A stretch of DNA of 64,000 nucleotides from Octopus vulgaris (lineage: Eukaryota). The stretch is from NCBI GenBank assembly GCA_951406725.2, contig OX597815.1:146072001-146136000 (forward strand), read 5' to 3'. Position 1 is the first letter of the stretch. Each line of letters starts with the position of its first letter. The translations under genes and the position numbers were made by a program. Shown here in pieces: positions 1,016 to 52,352 of the stretch. The notes under the pieces were generated by a model that had not been told where the DNA came from, did no database searches, and saw only the letters and a list, made by a program, of their open reading frames with translations.

Positions 1016-3474
1016 ACGAATAATACTAGAAACGAATAATGTTGATAGTGTTGCTGCTGCTGCTGGTCAATTTGTGGTATGAGTGTTCTTGTTGCAACAC
1101 TCTCACATACTTGATCACTATTCTATAGGATTATTGTGTTATAGCTTCAGTTTTTAGGAAGTTAAGATAATTCAATTACCTGTAATATATATTGCAGAAT
1201 CTACTCATAACATGGATGGTTATAGACATAAGTAATATACCTGTAATACAGAGAACAATTTGTCGTTGTCCCAAATGAACATAAAATAAGTAGTAGTGAT
1301 TTAAAGGTTTAAGATCAATGTTGATTATTATTATTATTTGTGCGAGAATCTCTGACAGAGGTGACATGTTTATTCACTTCAAGACATTTGCTAGAATATG
1401 GAGTTCGTTAAAAATCGAAGACAACTTGGTACTAAGTTACTGAGAAAATTGTTTTCTCACAGTGTAAAATAAAGGACAATGTTTTCGGCATTTCGTTAAT
1501 GAAACACTTATATATGTTACTGCTATGCTGAGCGCTGAGATATTCATCCTTATAGTATTTAGCTATATTTTATTGGAGAAAGTCAACAACTTATTAAGTT
1601 ACACTAGTCTATGCTGCGATGATAGTTTGTCGAAAATATCAAGTTGTTGTACAAAATAAAACAAGCTGTGTGTATAGGTTTTGGTCTAATGCTTTCTCTG
1701 TTCAAATACTGCCAACACTAACTTTGTTTTTTCTTTTCCTAAGAACGTTAAAATAAAGTACCAGTCATATATTTTGGTTGGTAATTGCGCTCTTTCTGAC
1801 TTCATGAAGCAAATGGGACTGCAGATAACCTTGAACGGACCTTATTTGTGTTGCATTCACTTTAAGGGAGAAGGTATGTTGAAACCCTAATGGCCACAAT
1901 ATCCCTGTAAGGAGTAACAGCTCCAATTATTATTTGATTTGAAAGATATTACGTCCTCCGTAAGCTGACAGATGAAGAAATAATAAGTCATGGAACACCC
2001 AATGGTTTATCCGTTTGCGTGTGGTAGTGTGTCTTTCAATTTATGTTCTCTTAATTATATTTTTTTCGTCTGAAATATATAATCTTTTCTCGATACACAA
2101 CGATCCATGGAATTGATATTCTGATTTTTTTTTTTTTTTGGTAGTACTAATCAAAAGAAAATTATTTATGATCTATTGTGCTGTGTATGTGCATCTGGAG
2201 TATTTCCTATTAACTTACTCGTTAAATTATACTTACAGTAGTAATCTATTCCACACTGAATTACATTTGGTATGTATACTCAAGGGTAATGAGTTGATAT
2301 GGTTTAAGTGTTATGGATATGTAAACGCTTGAGTATTAGCTTCGGGATATTTATCACTACTAAGAAGTAAATTATAGCTGTGTAGCTAAGAAGCTCGCAA
2401 TGAATCAGTGGAAACGGTAGCATATATTTATGACTGCTAAAGACTCGGTAACTGTAGTCTATATTTATATTAATATAAATGCGTATACATTATATCAAGT
2501 TACATTGGCGAACGGTCGGATTCTCGGCGAGAAGGGAAAAAGACCGAAGTTCTCCGAACGAATTTCTTCATGCTTTTTATTCCACACCAAATTATAAACA
2601 TTTTATTGTCATCTACAACATTAGAAACTTCGAGTACCAGTAATTTATTCTATTGACTGTAACCTGTGACACTATTTTCTCAAAATTTGGAATATAAAAT
2701 AAATACATTTTCACATATCAGACATTCTACCAAAATTTCCAACAGGTGGGGAAGTGGAAGCTTTATCAGGGGTACGTTTAGATTGCTTTGCCTAACTTGA
2801 GATTGGCGAGCAGTATTTCTCTGCGTTCTGAGTTCGAATCATGCCATAGCTTATATGGGTGGTACATTTGACCAGCTTACCGGTTTAAGAACCTGGATGC
2901 CTTTAGCTAAGTCCACTTTATTGCAAGCATTCGAGCAAGATATCCAGTTTGAGGACATTTGTCTCCCCTTTTTACCCAGCAACTCCAGAAGCCCTGAGAT
3001 AGCGCTAGAACACTAGCTTATGCTCTGACTAAGGATGAGCAGAAACTATTTTCAGACACCATGTAGCTACATATTTTTATTACAAACAAAACCTCAAATA
3101 ACATTATAATAAAACTAATACACCTGATTTCAATAGCAGTATGCCCGGTTTGGGGTATGTACATAGTTTCTCAATACTCTAAATACGCACTCTTCTCACA
3201 TGACACAATTCATCCTCTCTTTAGCATTTAAACATAACAAAATCATAGCTTAATACTTTTCCTCCGGAAATACTATCCTTTGCTGTCTCTTATATCTTCC
3301 TCTCAATTTACTTTTTTCAAAACATTGCACGCCTTAAGCCCGAGAAAAATATTTTTGTTATCAGTTATGGATCACGTGGAAACGGTTAAACATCTTGTTC
3401 ATAAATATACTTTTTAGTATATTTGTAAGTGGTTATATAATAATTTTTCGAGGAAAATAAAAATGACATAAACT

Positions 3475-4264: not shown

Positions 4265-5160
4265 ATCCTTTCTATTACAGGCTCAAGGCCTGACATTTTG
4301 TGGAGGAGATGAGTTGGGTACATCGACCCCAGTACTCAACTGGTACTTATTTTAACAACTCCGAAAGGATGAACGGCAGGGACCCTAGCGGAATTTGAAC
4401 TTAGAGCAAAAAGACAGACGAACTGTCTCATTTTGTCATTTTGTCCGGTGAGGTAACTTTTCTGCCAGAACATCGCATTAATAAAAACAATAATAATACG
4501 AAAATATGAGTAGCAACACATCAAAAGCTAAGTATTTCGCCCGGTGTGCTAACGTTTCTTATTTCTTTATGCCAACAAAGGGCTAACGATAGAGGAGATA
4601 AACAAGGATAGACAAAGGGATTAAGTCGATTACATCGACCCCACTGTGTAAATGGTACTTAATTTATCCACCCCGAAAGGATGAAAGGCAAAGTCGACAT
4701 CGGCGGAATTTGAACTCAGGACGTAACGGCAGACGAGATACCTATTTCTTTACCACCCACAAAGGGCTAAACACAGAGAGGACAAACAAAGACAGAAAAC
4801 AGATTAAGTCGATTACATCGACCCCCAGTGCGTAACTGGTACTTATTTAATCGACCCCGAAAGGATGAAAGGCAAAGTCGATCTCGGCGGAAATTGAACT
4901 CAGAACGTAGCGGCAGACGAAATACCGCTAAGTATTTCGCCCGGCGTGCTAACGTTTCTTCCAGCTCACCGTATTACGCTACCTGAATAGTCTTTTCTAC
5001 TCTAGGCACAAGGTCCGAAAGTTTTGTGGAGAGGGCTAGTCGATTAGATCGACACCAGTACGCAACTGGCGCTTAATTTATCAACCCCGAAAGGATGAAA
5101 AGCAAAGTCGACCTCCGCAGAATTTGAACTCCAATATAGAGGCAGACGAAATCTACCTGA
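4265..5160 (-). mobile_element. Cluster of about 4-5 co-oriented SINE family A copies, including a tandem dimer
   Basis: Repeated CGACCCCAGT..CTGGTACTT..CCCCGAAAGGATGAAAGGCAAAGTCGA..GGAATTTGAACTC units at ~4320, 4635, 4818, 5050. Confidence 0.85.
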
Positions 5161-12589: not shown

Positions 12590-13400
12590 AAATAGTAAAA
12601 AGTGAAAAAAAAACTACAGAAGGCTTGTTTTAAAAGGGTAAAAAATATATTTGAGTCATTATGTCAGAAGAATGTTATAAAATGTTTTCATACAGTGACA
12701 TAGTTTTTGAAGAAATTACCGGTTTCGTGTTAACTTTTCAAATTTCTCAAAACATCGTGTAATGTCTTCGTTATGAAGTGTAAAGAAGAGTTCTAGGTAA
12801 GGGTAGGTAATAAGTGATTTCTTCCGGTGTAAGGGAGATAATCACTTTATGTTTCTTGTCCCTTTTATTTAATGGGGTGAGTTTCTCTGTATAAGAATGT
12901 TAGAGTGGTTAAGTTTGGGCTTATATTTTTCAATAATGTTTCCTTTTTTAGTCTAATTTGTGTTGGTGTTCCAATAGCAGATTGATAAAATGGAAAGATG
13001 AAAAATTGTGGTAGTAGTTGCTTTGCGCATTTCTCAATATGCTCACTAAAGGGTATCATTCTGTATTCTGGGAATGCAATCTGTTGTCGATGCAGTGTGC
13101 CACAAGTAAAATTAGAATTGATCTGGGATTTTTGTCCCTCTTTGAAGAGGAATTCTGATCCTTCTAGAAGGTTTGGGCATGTTGCGCAGTTTGGTCTACC
13201 ACATTTTTTTTACTTTTGCATCCGTAATTTCAGAAAACAATTTTGCCTTTGTGAGAACCTTTTTAAGTAATTTAGGTTGTTAGTAGCTTTTAATGATTTT
13301 ATGTATGCTTAGAATTTCCTTTAATTTGGGGTCCTTATGAAGTATTGGTAAATTCTGGGTGATGATGAAAGCTTCTTTGCTTCTGGGGTTGTATGTGGAT
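12590..13400 (-). mobile_element. Penelope-like element fragment (Cys knuckle, GIY-YIG C-terminus, 3' region with degenerate HHR)
   Basis: Minus translation KKCGRPNCATCPNL..LHRQQIAFPEYRMIPFSEHIEKCAK..FFIFPFYQ..RLKKE; downstream gaaat-TTGAAAA-gt..ac-GAAA-ccgg-TA-atttc at 12712-12746. Confidence 0.8.
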
Positions 13401-20499: not shown

Positions 20500-20932
20500 T
20501 CGTGAGCTGACAGAAACGTTAGCAAGCCAGGGGAAATGCTTGGCGGTATTTCGTCTGCTGCTACGTTCTGAGTTCAAATTCCGCCGAGGTCGACTTTGCC
20601 TTTCATCCTTCCGGGGTCGATTAAATAAGAACCAGTTACGCACTGGGGTCGATATAATCGACTTAATCCGTTTGCCTGTCCTTGTTTGTCCCCTCTGTGT
20701 TTAGCCCCTTGTGAGTAGTAAAGAAATAGGTATTTCGTCTGCCGCTACGTTCTGAGTTCAAATTCCGCCGAGGTCAACTTTGTCTTTCATCCCTTCGGGG
20801 TCGATTAAATAAGTACCAGTTACGCACTGGGGTCAATATAATCGACTTAATCCGTTTCTCTGTCTGTCCTCTCTGTGTTTGTCCTCTCTGTGTTTAGCCC
20901 CTTGTGGGTAGTAAAGAAATAGGTATTTCGTC
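20500..20932 (+). mobile_element. SINE family A tandem dimer
   Basis: Two bodies joined at AAAGAAATA|GGTATTTCGTCTG; ends with the same junction. Confidence 0.9.
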
Positions 20933-20937
20933 TCCCT

Positions 20938-21722
20938 TTAGACGTGTACCTGAACTGGCAATAGAATGGGTTTATCCCCAGATCTGTGCGCCGGGATGTA
21001 TTGACGTTGGTCAGAAAGGACCCGGACAAGGGGGGACGTTTTAGATAATTTCAGACCCATCACTCCGTTAAACGCAGAAGTGAAGATTTCGGCCAAGGTC
21101 TTTGCAAATGGTTGACGCGTGTCGCGAATAGTATAGTCGGGGAGGCACAGACATGTGCCATTCCAGGCAGAAACATTCAGGATAATCTCCACCTTATTCA
21201 CTATACCATAGAGAGGGTTGGTGGTAAATCTGGCAAAGGTGGGGCATTGGTACATTTGGACCAGTCTAAAGCTTTTGATCGGGTTGACCATCGATACTTG
21301 GGGACTGTTCTAGCACGGTTCGGCCTTAGATTCCTTAGGTGGTTTATCGCTTTGTATCACAACATTGACTGACTAGTTCAGGTGAACGATTTCCTTTCGA
21401 AGCCGTTCTGCATCAGGCGCTCTGTTCGTCAAGGATGTCCACTCTCACCACTTTTGCATATGATGGCCCTTGAGCCCCTATTGCGAAGGTTGAGTGGCAT
21501 CCCGAAAGAACCAAGTTTAGAGGAGTTGGTTACAGCTTACGCGGACGATATCACTATCAGCGTAACTACAGTAGCCCGCCTACGTGAAGTGGGTAAGGCT
21601 ATTGGGGTTTACGAGACGGTCGCAAGAGCAAAGATTAACCGGGAAAGGACGGTCGGCTTGCAGCTTGGCAACTGGGTTGGCAAGTCCATGCCTTCAGGCA
21701 GCGTTGTTGGGTGCTGGATAGG
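20938..21722 (+). mobile_element. Tx1/L1-clade LINE reverse-transcriptase fragment (pseudogenised)
   Basis: NFRPITPLNAEVKI, QTCAIPGRNIQDN, LDQSKAFDRVDHRYL, SVRQGCPLSPLL..ALEPL, AYADD; internal stops. Confidence 0.9.
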
Positions 21723-22172
21723 TCTACCTAAACGAGCGCATCTCTGTAGAATACTCACCCACCAGTACGTTAATTTCCCCAACATGCAGTTGATCGGATC
21801 AACTGGAGCCGTAGTCGTCGTAACCGGCTGAGTGTCATTTGTGCATATCGAGGTATATAATGAGGGCAGCAGCGTTAGGCTCCCCCATTCACCAAATGCC
21901 ACATATCAGAGTGGGTTTCATGTAGTGAAGGTGTGACAAAGCGAACGGCGGTGCCCCAGCATAGCCGCAGCTCTCGAGATGAAACAACTGAAATTAAATA
22001 TATAATTATATGTACACACACATATACATATGTGCATCTATGTGTGTGTGTTTATATAACCTTTCCTTTCTCCTCTTTCGGACGAAGAGTCATGCATGAA
22101 ACCTTATGCACCTTCCTGTTTTCCCATATTTACTGAGTGTCAATCTAATACATTCCGTGTGTAGTCGTTTTG

Positions 22173-32534: not shown

Positions 32535-33586
32535 ATATCATCAATTGGCGTCCCGACCCATCACACTGATAGGAATAAGCATATATGGTTTGTAATCCCC
32601 TTTGGTAAGCAGATTAGAACTAACCTCCCCCTCATGTTTAGACAAGCCATCGCCAATAACTTCCCCAGAAATTCCAAATATTACTCCACGGTTAACTCGC
32701 ATAAAGTTAGGATAGCTTTCTCCAACACTAAAAACCTCGCCCAGATAATCGCCTCCCATAATAATAGGCTACTTACTAAGACCCTATCAGCTTTTTCCGG
32801 AGGCACAGCCTCTTCCGCTCCCGGTTTAATGCTCAGTAGGAATAATTATAGTAGTAATAATGATATGAGAGCCAGTACAGTGACACATAATTTCAGCTCC
32901 AGCCAGGGAGTACCCACTAGGAGTATAGTTATAAATAGGGGTGTTGTGGTTGACGGTAACAATGGGAGTAGGGTAGAGAGCCCCAATAGCATCCCCAGCA
33001 TCATTTCCCGCAATAGCAGCACCACGGGCAGTAGCAATGACAGCACTCTGATAGATAGTGGAGAATCAGGGGTTATTCCTATAGTTAATAGTGACGTAGT
33101 GGAAAATAGAGTAGTAAGCGGCTGCAGGTCTCGGAACGAATATAGTGACAGGAACGCAGTTCTAATTTCAGAAACTAATCCTAGCAGAATAAGATTCACG
33201 TCGGCGAACTCCAAGATCAAAAACGCCGTCTACCAATGCAAGGTTTACACGGACTCAGATGTCTTCACTTATGTAGGGGCCTCATCCTCAAGATTGTCTT
33301 TGCGAGTCTCCAACCATTACGCAACTTTTCGGGACATGAACAAGCGCCAGACCACGGGACTCAGTAAGCTAATATGGCGACTGAAGGATACGAACTTAAG
33401 CTACAGGCTGGAATGGTCAATTTTGTCGGTGGCCCTCCCATTTGATAGGGGCAGAACCAGTGCAACCTTTGTGTCTCCGAACTCTTCCATATTTTGTTTG
33501 CCAGAGGCCGGATGGTAAACGGGCTTTTACAGTCGGCTTTTCGATGCCCCCATTGGCGGCGTTACACTTATCTGGCTTTTAAATAG
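32535..33586 (+). pseudogene. Penelope-like element ORF fragment: post-RT region, long Ser/Asn linker, GIY-YIG endonuclease; one frameshift near 33452
   Basis: HIWFVIPFGKQIRTN..NSHKVRIAFSNTKNLAQIIASHN; AVYQCKV..YVGAS..RVSNHYATF..TGLSKLIWRLK..LEWSIL; after the shift CNLCVSELFHIL..RCPH. Confidence 0.85.
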
Positions 33587-47188: not shown

Positions 47189-47223
47189 GTTTAACGTTTC
47201 GAGCAGAGCTCTTCGTCAGAAAC
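47189..47223 (-). ncRNA. Minimal hammerhead ribozyme (loopless stem III) in short element 47100-47278
   Basis: Minus strand gttt-CTGACGA-a-gagc-tct-gctc-GAAAC-GTT-aaac. Confidence 0.75.
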
Positions 47224-51826: not shown

Positions 51827-51892
<66 letters not shown>

Positions 51893-51991
51893 ATGTATAT
51901 ATGTATCTGTGTATATATATCTATCTACGTATATAAATATATATGGAGATATAGTCAACGTAGAAAATGCTAAAATAAATTCATAAAAAAG

Positions 51992-52059
51992 GTTAGCAGG
52001 CCGGAGTCTCGTTCGTTATCGAAATCAACCAGACGGATCGCTCCACCTACTAAGAACGG
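51992..52059 (-). pseudogene. 18S rRNA fragment (antisense arm)
   Basis: Minus strand CCGTTCTTAGTAGGTGGAGCGATCCGTCTGGTTGATTTCGATAACGAACGAGACTCCGGCCTGCTAAC. Confidence 0.9.
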
Positions 52060-52060
52060 G

Positions 52061-52134
52061 GCATGGCCATTCTTAGTAGGTGGAGCGATCCGTCTGGCTG
52101 ATTCCGATAACGAACGAGACTCCGGCCTGCTAAC
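52061..52134 (+). pseudogene. 18S rRNA fragment (sense arm)
   Basis: GCATGGCCATTCTTAGTAGGTGGAGCGAT..ATTCCGATAACGAACGAGAC matches the conserved eukaryotic SSU segment GCATGGCCGTTCTTAGTTGGTGGAGCGATTTGTCTGGTTAATTCCGATAACGAACGAGAC. Confidence 0.92.
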
Positions 52135-52244
52135 CTGAAATGTTTTTTATAAAATTATTTTAGCATTTTCTACCTTGACTTTTTTCCATGTATATCAACT
52201 CGCGTGTTCCTTTTCAACCTTCTACATATAAATATATATATGCA

Positions 52245-52352
<108 letters not shown>

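What the first reader, a model, noticed from the sequence alone, without database searches (positions are those of the whole stretch)
51939..52224. 18S rRNA fragment captured in both arms of a retroelement-like fold-back hairpin
Seen: an antisense copy (51992-52059) and a sense copy (52061-52134) of a conserved 18S segment, with 3 mismatches between the arms. Each is fused at the same rRNA position (..GCCTGCTAAC) to the same AT-rich ~50-bp sequence, and the whole sits in TA-rich microsatellite. Known: Penelope-like elements often insert with an inverted 5'-truncated end, and their RNAs carry self-cleaving HHRs that leave 5'-OH ends. Inference: this is a chimeric 18S-PLE retrocopy made by RT template jumping, or by ligation of an rRNA fragment to the HHR-cleaved 3' product (which would start at CTGAAATG). 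If transcribed it would give dsRNA or antisense RNA against 18S.
Basis: partly seen in the sequence, partly recalled or inferred. Interest (0 to 1): 0.85.

Follow-up and report, generated by a model that had tools for sequence, protein, structure and literature searches.

The report
Ribozyme-cut retroelement RNA captured 18S fragment
A piece of the host's 18S rRNA sits in a DNA hairpin, joined to a Penelope-like retroelement exactly at the predicted cut site of its hammerhead ribozyme; U6 RNA is joined at such sites at 13 more places in this genome, which likely records that these doubtful ribozymes do cut in the germline and that the cut ends get ligated to other RNAs.

Summary
The hairpin is real. 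Both arms hold the host's own 18S segment ending at nt 1910, followed by the 3' end of a high-copy GIY-YIG Penelope-like element (PLE). Other copies show that 52135 is the first base after a minimal hammerhead (U3-A8 core, palindromic stem III), so the blunt junction lies at the predicted cut.

A test that I set up from the ligation idea passed. U6, whose mature end is a cyclic phosphate in humans, is joined at the same base at 6 loci, and at hammerhead-like cut sites of four other families at 7 more, each time with five T. No 5S or tRNA-CCA joins were found.

Most likely a nuclease-cut 18S fragment was ligated (RtcB-type) to the 5'-OH ribozyme product, reverse-transcribed, and snapped back into an inverted repeat. 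Template jumping remains the main rival. Over 800 copies read through the ribozyme, so cutting is the minority route. No RNA evidence was obtainable.

The locus itself is probably an inert fossil. Its value is as genomic evidence for in vivo PLE hammerhead cleavage, which two papers I read report as lacking, and as a hint of a preferred 18S break.

The parts
51830..51944 (.). (TA)n/(TG)n microsatellite, likely the left part of the target site
   Evidence: PLE bias for (TA)n from passages of PMC8557442
51937..51991 (-). inverted copy of the PLE (family A) sequence from the cut site to about +62, without the tail; 7-nt deletion next to the junction
51992..52059 (-). antisense 18S rRNA piece, own 18S nt 1843-1910, 2 differences from the rDNA array
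52060..52066 (.). about 7-nt loop; the two G at 52058-52059 belong to both arms (inferred snap-back point)
52058..52134 (+). sense 18S rRNA piece, own 18S nt 1834-1910, 4 differences from the rDNA array; ends where the GC-rich 274-nt expansion begins
52134..52135 (+). blunt 18S|PLE junction at the predicted hammerhead cut site (after GUA in read-through copies)
52135..52225 (+). 3' end (pLTR part after the hammerhead) of a GIY-YIG Penelope-like element, including the ~30-nt tail 52197-52225 found on this arm only
52226..52351 (.). (AT)n and (TATC)n microsatellite, likely the right part of the target site

Best explanation
This is a chimeric retrocopy in which an 18S rRNA fragment is joined bluntly to a Penelope-like element at the predicted cut site of its hammerhead ribozyme, likely because the two RNAs were ligated before being reverse-transcribed. 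Shown: the 18S identity, the PLE identity of the outer arm, the hammerhead motif ending at the junction base, U6 joined at the same base elsewhere, and one private substitution shared by both arms. Inferred: (1) the hammerhead cut the PLE transcript and left a 5'-OH at 52135; (2) a nuclease cut 18S near nt 1910, leaving a cyclic or 3' phosphate; (3) an RtcB-type ligase joined them; (4) the PLE RT, primed at a nicked (TA)n site, started about 91 nt downstream (tail end) and copied across the joint; (5) after 77 nt of 18S the cDNA end folded back on a 2-nt match and was extended along itself to the nearer start site, giving the inverted arm. The copy is probably inert.
For: Junction: 18S continues TAG in the rDNA and the PLE is preceded by GTA, so the window is 18S..TAAC + CTG with nothing added or lost. 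Hammerhead: in 37 copies U3 35, U4 37, G5 35, A6 36, A8 35, A9 37, G12 35, A13 37, A14 36, A15.1 37, U16.1 35, A17 37, with stems I and II paired and a CCGG palindrome; U3-A8 cores and palindromic stem III are described for PLE hammerheads (PMC4209133). PLE link: RT/GIY-YIG similarity upstream on the same strand in L013, L021, L094, L080, L003, L030. U6 test: 1 of 30 U6 loci fetched (48 listed) was joined at this base. The site-blind list of U6 tails (first 100 of 215 rows) held 4 family-A loci, all at +1. With the total is 6 loci, all aligning at +1; 4 of the 6 are also hairpins. U6 also joins four other repeat families right after their own GAAA..UH motif at 7 loci: L237, L236, L330, L332, L235, L234, L253/254. 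All 13 have exactly five T, the mature cyclic-phosphate form in humans (PMC6789731 passages). Controls with 3'-OH ends (my knowledge): 0 5S joins to family A; by eye none of 100 listed of 139 5S tails starts with these PLE ends, and 0 of 20 non-SINE ones fetched is such a join or a hairpin; 0 of 16 CCA matches is a tRNA or a PLE. U6 8 of 97 against 5S 0 of 100, Fisher p 0.003. One molecule: T1854A is in both arms and in no other 18S match of that motif held. 18S end: 4 of 17 other dispersed 18S copies end at nt 1909-1914 (rough p 0.01); as a positive control, 9 of 30 28S loci end within 8 nt at the AU-rich gap that I take to be the 28S hidden break. L328 holds a 438-nt unit from the cut site into the ORF joined back to the cut site, as a copied circle would.
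Against: 805 copies read straight through the motif, and plain 5' truncations show only a modest peak: 3 of 26 exactly at the cut, 13 of 26 within -2..+1 of a 15-position window, partly explained by TA microhomology (6 read-through copies with small indels were left unfetched). Rfam finds no hammerhead and family A shows no compensatory changes. At this junction 18S and PLE share ACT, so a microhomology switch plus one added C gives the same sequence. 5S and U6 are both very often joined to SINEs, so a route that needs no cyclic phosphate exists in this genome. The 5S pattern carried a filter that drops some joins. The second 18S hairpin (L096) is not diagnostic: its subfamily has GCAA for GAAA, shares GCTAA with 18S, and has 0 U6 joins. 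None of the 9 28S-break copies is joined to a PLE start I recognised. L215 and L228 share an odd centre and may be one event. No ribozyme, ligase or RNA data; the end chemistry of U6 and 18S in this animal is unknown.
Confidence: 0.68

Rival explanations
1. The hammerhead cut the RNA, the RT ran off the 5'-OH end at 52135 and jumped end-to-end onto the 3' end of an 18S fragment; no ligase was involved.
For: Predicts the same blunt junction at the cut. 5S and U6 both join SINEs here in large numbers, which shows ligase-independent joining is common in this genome. Template jumping is known for R2-type RTs (own knowledge; listing only).
Against: Abundant 3'-OH RNAs are missing at the cut sites, while U6 is joined 13 times with a uniform five T and no added bases; U6-SINE and 5S-SINE joins show variable T runs and extra bases.
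Confidence: 0.2
2. The RT was copying uncut RNA and switched to intact 18S at the shared ACT, adding one C; the match to the ribozyme site is coincidence.
For: ACT is shared at the junction; most copies come from uncut RNA (PMC11167929 reports unprocessed RNA as the main substrate in vitro); L096 also shows short similarity at its junction.
Against: Needs an extra base present in both arms. Cannot explain the U6 joins, where TTTTT shares nothing with the GGTA before the cut. Other 18S retrocopies end at the same place without any PLE.
Confidence: 0.08
3. The hairpin is a kept, functional source of dsRNA or antisense RNA against 18S.
For: The structure would fold stably.
Against: It is a single copy that has decayed in both arms. 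The same hairpin form occurs with U6 and with PLE sequence alone, so it is a by-product of PLE insertion.
Confidence: 0.03
4. The palindrome is an assembly or library artefact.
For: No long reads were examined.
Against: The arms differ by 9 substitutions and 2 indels, both differ from the rDNA array, and many loci share the architecture.
Confidence: 0.01

Closest known systems
U6/LINE-1 chimeric pseudogenes made by RtcB ligation (PMC6789731; passages read)
   Same: A cyclic-phosphate RNA joined bluntly, in sense, to a 5'-OH retroelement RNA and then retrotransposed; U6 with a five-U end; truncated small RNAs suggested to be endonuclease products.
   Different: There the L1 partner is variably truncated by unknown nucleases. 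Here the acceptor end is one fixed base, set by the element's own hammerhead, the element is a PLE, and many copies are fold-back hairpins.
28S rRNA/LINE-1 and other RNA/LINE-1 chimeras (PMC11838501; passages read)
   Same: rRNA fragments with recurrent ends fused in sense to a retroelement 3' end.
   Different: Mammalian L1 and 28S; the word ribozyme and the word Penelope do not occur in its main text; here 18S and a ribozyme-defined joint.
EN+ Penelope-like elements with minimal type I hammerheads in their pLTRs (PMC4209133, parts 1-2 of 4 read; PMC8557442 and PMC11167929, passages and one section part)
   Same: RT plus C-terminal GIY-YIG, U3-A8 core variant, palindromic stem III, inverted 5'-truncated arm, one-sided 30-40-nt tail, (TA)n targets.
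   Different: Those papers report low or protein-dependent cleavage in vitro, no in vivo evidence, and no RNA-seq reads ending at the cut. They describe no foreign RNA joined at the cut in the parts I read.
Metazoan retrozymes circularised by RtcB (PMC7229834; passages read)
   Same: Hammerhead products are RtcB substrates in vitro.
   Different: Canonical hammerheads in non-coding tandem repeats and self-circularisation, not joining of host RNAs to an autonomous PLE.
SINEs with rRNA- or snRNA-derived heads (PMC4494074, search listing only; SINE18/SINE28 recalled, not from a call)
   Same: A structural-RNA head fused to a retroelement tail.
   Different: This chimera has not amplified: one locus for the 18S-family A joint.

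Membership tests
EN+ Penelope-like element (outer arms) | RT plus C-terminal GIY-YIG ORF colinear with the repeat | tested here: met
   tblastn with the L107 frames hits 6 family-A copies upstream on the same strand, best E 9e-53; the L107 frame itself scores RVT_1 and GIY-YIG only below Pfam's cut-offs
EN+ Penelope-like element (outer arms) | pLTR structure: repeat end followed by the ORF start | tested here: met
   L017, L327, L328 continue from the tail into ORF-like 5' sequence
EN+ Penelope-like element (outer arms) | inverted 5'-truncated arm, one-sided tail, microsatellite targets | tested here: met
   features from PMC8557442
EN+ Penelope-like element (outer arms) | placement in a named clade (e.g. 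Neptune) | not tested
   no tree built; a CX4CxxC linker is visible in L107
minimal type I hammerhead ribozyme | core (C/U)UGAN(G/A)A, GAAA, UH with a 3:8 pair | tested here: met
   U3:A8 in 33 of 37 copies; other core bases 35-37 of 37
minimal type I hammerhead ribozyme | stems I and II, palindromic stem III | tested here: met
   3-bp stem I, 4-bp stem II, CCGG; different paired stem I sequences in families C, D, E
minimal type I hammerhead ribozyme | covariation within the family or an Rfam hit | tested here: inconclusive
   no compensatory pairs among 37 similar copies; no Rfam hammerhead hit at E up to 10
minimal type I hammerhead ribozyme | self-cleavage activity | not testable with these tools
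   only indirect: joints at the predicted cut
RtcB-ligated chimeric retrocopy (U6/L1 type) | blunt sense-sense joint without added bases | tested here: met
   the ACT-plus-C reading is an alternative for the 18S case only
RtcB-ligated chimeric retrocopy (U6/L1 type) | donor restricted to cyclic-phosphate ends | tested here: inconclusive
   U6 13 loci, 5S 0, tRNA-CCA 0, but controls are partial and the 18S end chemistry is unknown
RtcB-ligated chimeric retrocopy (U6/L1 type) | chimeric RNA exists before insertion and depends on RtcB | not testable with these tools
   no raw-read runs were offered
rRNA-derived SINE or MITE | the composite unit is itself multi-copy | tested here: not met
   only this locus carries the 18S-family A joint among 42 18S matches and 5 pattern matches

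The most novel reading that the evidence does not exclude
Minimal PLE hammerheads of at least five families cut in this animal's germline. Their 5'-OH products are standing acceptors for the host ligase, which joins U6, rRNA fragments and the element's own RNA (circles) to them. Chimeric retrocopies thus map ribozyme cuts base-exactly in any genome, and they also reveal an unreported natural break in this animal's 18S rRNA at the foot of its large GC-rich expansion.
Probability: 0.45. Interest if true: 0.85.

Novelty: new variant of a known kind. Interest (0 to 1): 0.72.

Why it matters
[quoted passage not shown] Heritable joints that fall exactly on the predicted cut, in several families, are germline evidence of cleavage. 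They also give a cheap test for any assembled genome: look at what follows U6 ends. They would extend the RtcB route for chimeric retrocopies from mammalian L1 to a ribozyme-defined end, support the proposed circular PLE intermediates, and point to a testable break in 18S. The single locus has no evident function.

Tried and rejected
RNA evidence: the look-up of sequencing runs listed 24 runs, all Logan contigs with RNA only guessed, no RNA holder listed. Laying 4 of them on the family-A hammerhead region showed cover in 3 runs and no loose end at the cut among the rows shown, with 77 rows hidden; contigs cannot show ends, so this is uninformative. Rfam miRNA hits on the hairpin and microsatellites are far below gathering scores and are rejected. 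L009 looked like a SINE fused at the cut, but the SINE itself continues CTG, so it is microhomology and was not counted. The GC-rich centre of L023 proved to be the element's own 3' UTR. The ORF in L107 belongs to a related family, not family A. Family B's link to an RT ORF is not established, nor is that of families C and F, which are PLE-like by structure only. L240 (U6 hairpin, seven T) was left out because its cut site could not be placed. The family-B junction pattern was swamped by a duplicated subfamily. No host gene was evident among 53 long frames in the window (not scanned against families). Earlier-findings look-ups returned nothing. Literature: no paper describing U6- or rRNA-PLE joints at hammerhead sites turned up in searches, and none on an 18S break in cephalopods in one search. 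The library lacks most subscription papers, I read no supplements, and two papers I recall on PLE/Terminon hammerheads (2017) were not seen, so prior mention cannot be excluded.

Full report
Setting. The window is G000:C2:146072001-146136000 in a 2.8-Gb genome, AT-rich and full of microsatellites and SINEs. The SINEs and the long 18S look octopus-like to me; that label is recalled, not tested.

Observation. The hairpin is as described: arms 51937-52059 and 52066-52193, three mismatches in the 18S part, six substitutions, a 1-nt indel and a 7-nt deletion in the outer part. The inner part is the host's own 18S. An rDNA array with a period of about 18.4 kb lies on C20, its 18S is 2643 nt, and the arms cover nt 1834-1910 and 1843-1910 with 4 and 2 differences. 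One difference, T1854A, is in both arms and in no other match of that motif among the loci held, so both arms most likely come from one molecule.

The outer arm. A search with 51945-52225 gave 1803 candidates, 40 scored, nearly all matching from 52135 on. Of 27 such copies that could be anchored, 24 continue upstream into one shared sequence. The copies share one 3' end followed by (AC)n or (AT)n, vary in 5' length and often carry an inverted arm. Six of them carry RT C-terminal or GIY-YIG coding sequence upstream on the same strand, and three run from the tail into ORF-like 5' sequence. This is the pLTR of an EN+ Penelope-like element, here family A. The right arm ends with a 30-nt tail that the left arm lacks, the one-sided tail described in PMC8557442 (passages) and tied to two RT start sites in PMC11167929 (passages and second part of the main text).

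The ribozyme. Just upstream of the base matching 52135 the read-through copies spell a minimal type I hammerhead: 3-bp stem I, core with U3-A8, 4-bp stem II, GAAA, a CCGG palindrome, then UA (37 copies). U3-A8 cores and palindromic stem III are reported for PLE hammerheads, with low activity in vitro (PMC4209133, parts 1-2 of 4). The predicted cut falls exactly at the junction in the window. The rDNA continues TAG and the element is preceded by GTA, so the joint is blunt. A switch at the shared ACT plus one added C would give the same letters. Rfam does not detect the motif and the family is too uniform to show covariation.

Test with U6. If cut ends are ligated, U6, which in humans ends in five U and a cyclic phosphate and is joined to 5'-OH L1 RNA by RtcB (PMC6789731, passages), should be joined at the same base. 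It is. One of 30 fetched U6 loci showed it, a targeted pattern gave 5 matches at 4 loci, and the site-blind list of U6 tails (first 100 of 215 rows) held 4 family-A loci, all at +1. Together these are 6 loci, each aligning at +1, 4 of them hairpins; two of them may share one origin. Here no microhomology is possible. I fetched the 20 of those 100 rows that looked least like SINEs or genes; none joined family A elsewhere. U6 is joined to four other families right after their own GAAA..UH motif. Family D has a copy with GIY-YIG sequence in this window at 12745 on the minus strand (L237). Family E is related to the RT-GIY-YIG element in L107; L330 aligns at its cut +1 (L236, L330, L332). Family C is L235 and family F is L234 and L253/254. 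For C the core differs between the two read-through copies seen, and for F only the GAAA half was seen. All 13 joints have five T and no added base.

Controls. 5S tails are as often copied: 139 with my filter, 100 listed, mostly joined to SINEs. None is joined to family A. By eye none starts with the other PLE ends, and 0 of 20 non-SINE ones fetched is such a join or a hairpin. The 16 CCA-plus-family-A matches hold no tRNA and no PLE. U6 8 of 97 loci against 5S 0 of 100 gives p 0.003; the filter drops some possible joins. An 80-match list of copies with a changed -3 base showed no 5S or tRNA end either, but it missed the U6 joints too, so it is insensitive.

The 18S end. Of 17 other dispersed 18S copies whose 3' end lies inside the gene, 4 end at nt 1909-1914 (L035, L051, L057, L096; rough p 0.01), where a 274-nt, 78% GC expansion begins (V7 by my knowledge). 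As a check on the logic, 9 of 30 28S loci end within 8 nt at an AU-rich gap that I take to be the hidden break. So retrocopy ends can mark real RNA ends, and a preferred 18S cut is plausible though unproven. L096 is a second 18S hairpin with another family (B). Its joint fits that family's predicted cut, but the subfamily has GCAA for GAAA, shares GCTAA with 18S and has no U6 joins, so I give it little weight.

Against. 805 copies read through the motif. Among 26 junction-bearing arms in a 15-position window only 3 start exactly at the cut and 13 within -2..+1. Cleavage is therefore a minority fate among copied RNAs, in line with the in vitro finding that unprocessed RNA is the main substrate. 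U6 and 5S both join SINEs freely, so ligase-free joining exists here. No RNA data bear on the question.

Mechanism. Shown: identities, motif, joint positions, shared substitution. Inferred: hammerhead cut; nuclease cut of 18S; RtcB-type ligation (hammerhead products are RtcB substrates in vitro, PMC7229834, passages); priming at (TA)n; fold-back of the cDNA end on the two-base match at 52058-52059 with a 7-nt loop; repair into an inverted repeat. The U6 hairpins have centres of the same kind. L328, a 438-nt unit running from the cut into the ORF and back to the cut, fits the circular intermediate proposed in PMC4209133, though insertion into another copy is not excluded. I put ligation at 0.68, run-off and jump at 0.2, microhomology at 0.08.

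Novelty. It works like U6/L1 and rRNA/L1 chimeras (PMC6789731; PMC11838501, passages) but with a ribozyme-fixed acceptor in a PLE. Searches found no report of it and search 28 none of an 18S break in cephalopods; subscription papers and supplements were not seen. PMC8782182 (passages) added only that degraded rRNA is a source of cyclic-phosphate ends. Verdict: real, a new variant of a known kind; the locus is probably inert, but the pattern it led to makes an open question directly testable. Interest 0.72.

Noticed in passing
G000-wide; L197-L226: Most dispersed U6 copies and most dispersed 5S copies are joined to SINE sequence (5' ends or internal points), with variable T runs and extra bases; the 5S copies often keep precursor-like trailers. 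Well over a hundred such chimeras are implied.
   Followed up: partly
L328 (G000:C29:203100-204400), 423-906; L327: A 438-nt unit from the family-A cut site into the ORF joined back to the cut site, as a rolling copy of a circular RNA would look; L327 has a similar ORF-to-cut joint.
   Followed up: partly
L035, L051, L057, L096: 18S retrocopies end at nt 1909-1914, at the foot of a 274-nt GC-rich expansion; L051 has an about 10-nt target-site duplication. Possible natural break in 18S.
   Followed up: partly
L345, L351, L354, L355, L359, L360, L362, L363, L364: 28S retrocopies end at LSU nt 2056-2063, mapping the likely 5' edge of the hidden break.
   Followed up: partly
L096 (G000:C28:2116160-2116439): Second 18S fold-back hairpin, with another high-copy family whose hammerhead-like motif has GCAA in one subfamily and GAAA in another.
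   Followed up: yes
window 12624-13209, minus strand: Truncated PLE of family D: GIY-YIG C-terminus followed by a U3-A8 minimal hammerhead at 12745.
   Followed up: partly
window near 47223, minus strand: Another minimal hammerhead-like motif with a canonical C3-G8 core.
   Followed up: no
window 32535-33518 and 21373-21831: Frames that look like another GIY-YIG retroelement C-terminus and a LINE RT fragment (by eye).
   Followed up: no
L244, L246, L247: U6 joined to a 5S-like copy, a tRNA-U6-U6 array and a U6-U6 tandem.
   Followed up: no
L336, L342, L346-L350, L357: Several 28S copies break off at LSU nt 3355-3368 into shared non-rDNA sequence, as R2-type insertions would.
   Followed up: no
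L097/L098 (G000:C6, two copies 15 kb apart): A 352-nt 18S piece abutting, in opposite orientation, a repeat with a hammerhead-like motif.
   Followed up: no
window 4560-4926 and 20545-20933: 184-nt tandem duplications of a tRNA-type SINE.
   Followed up: no
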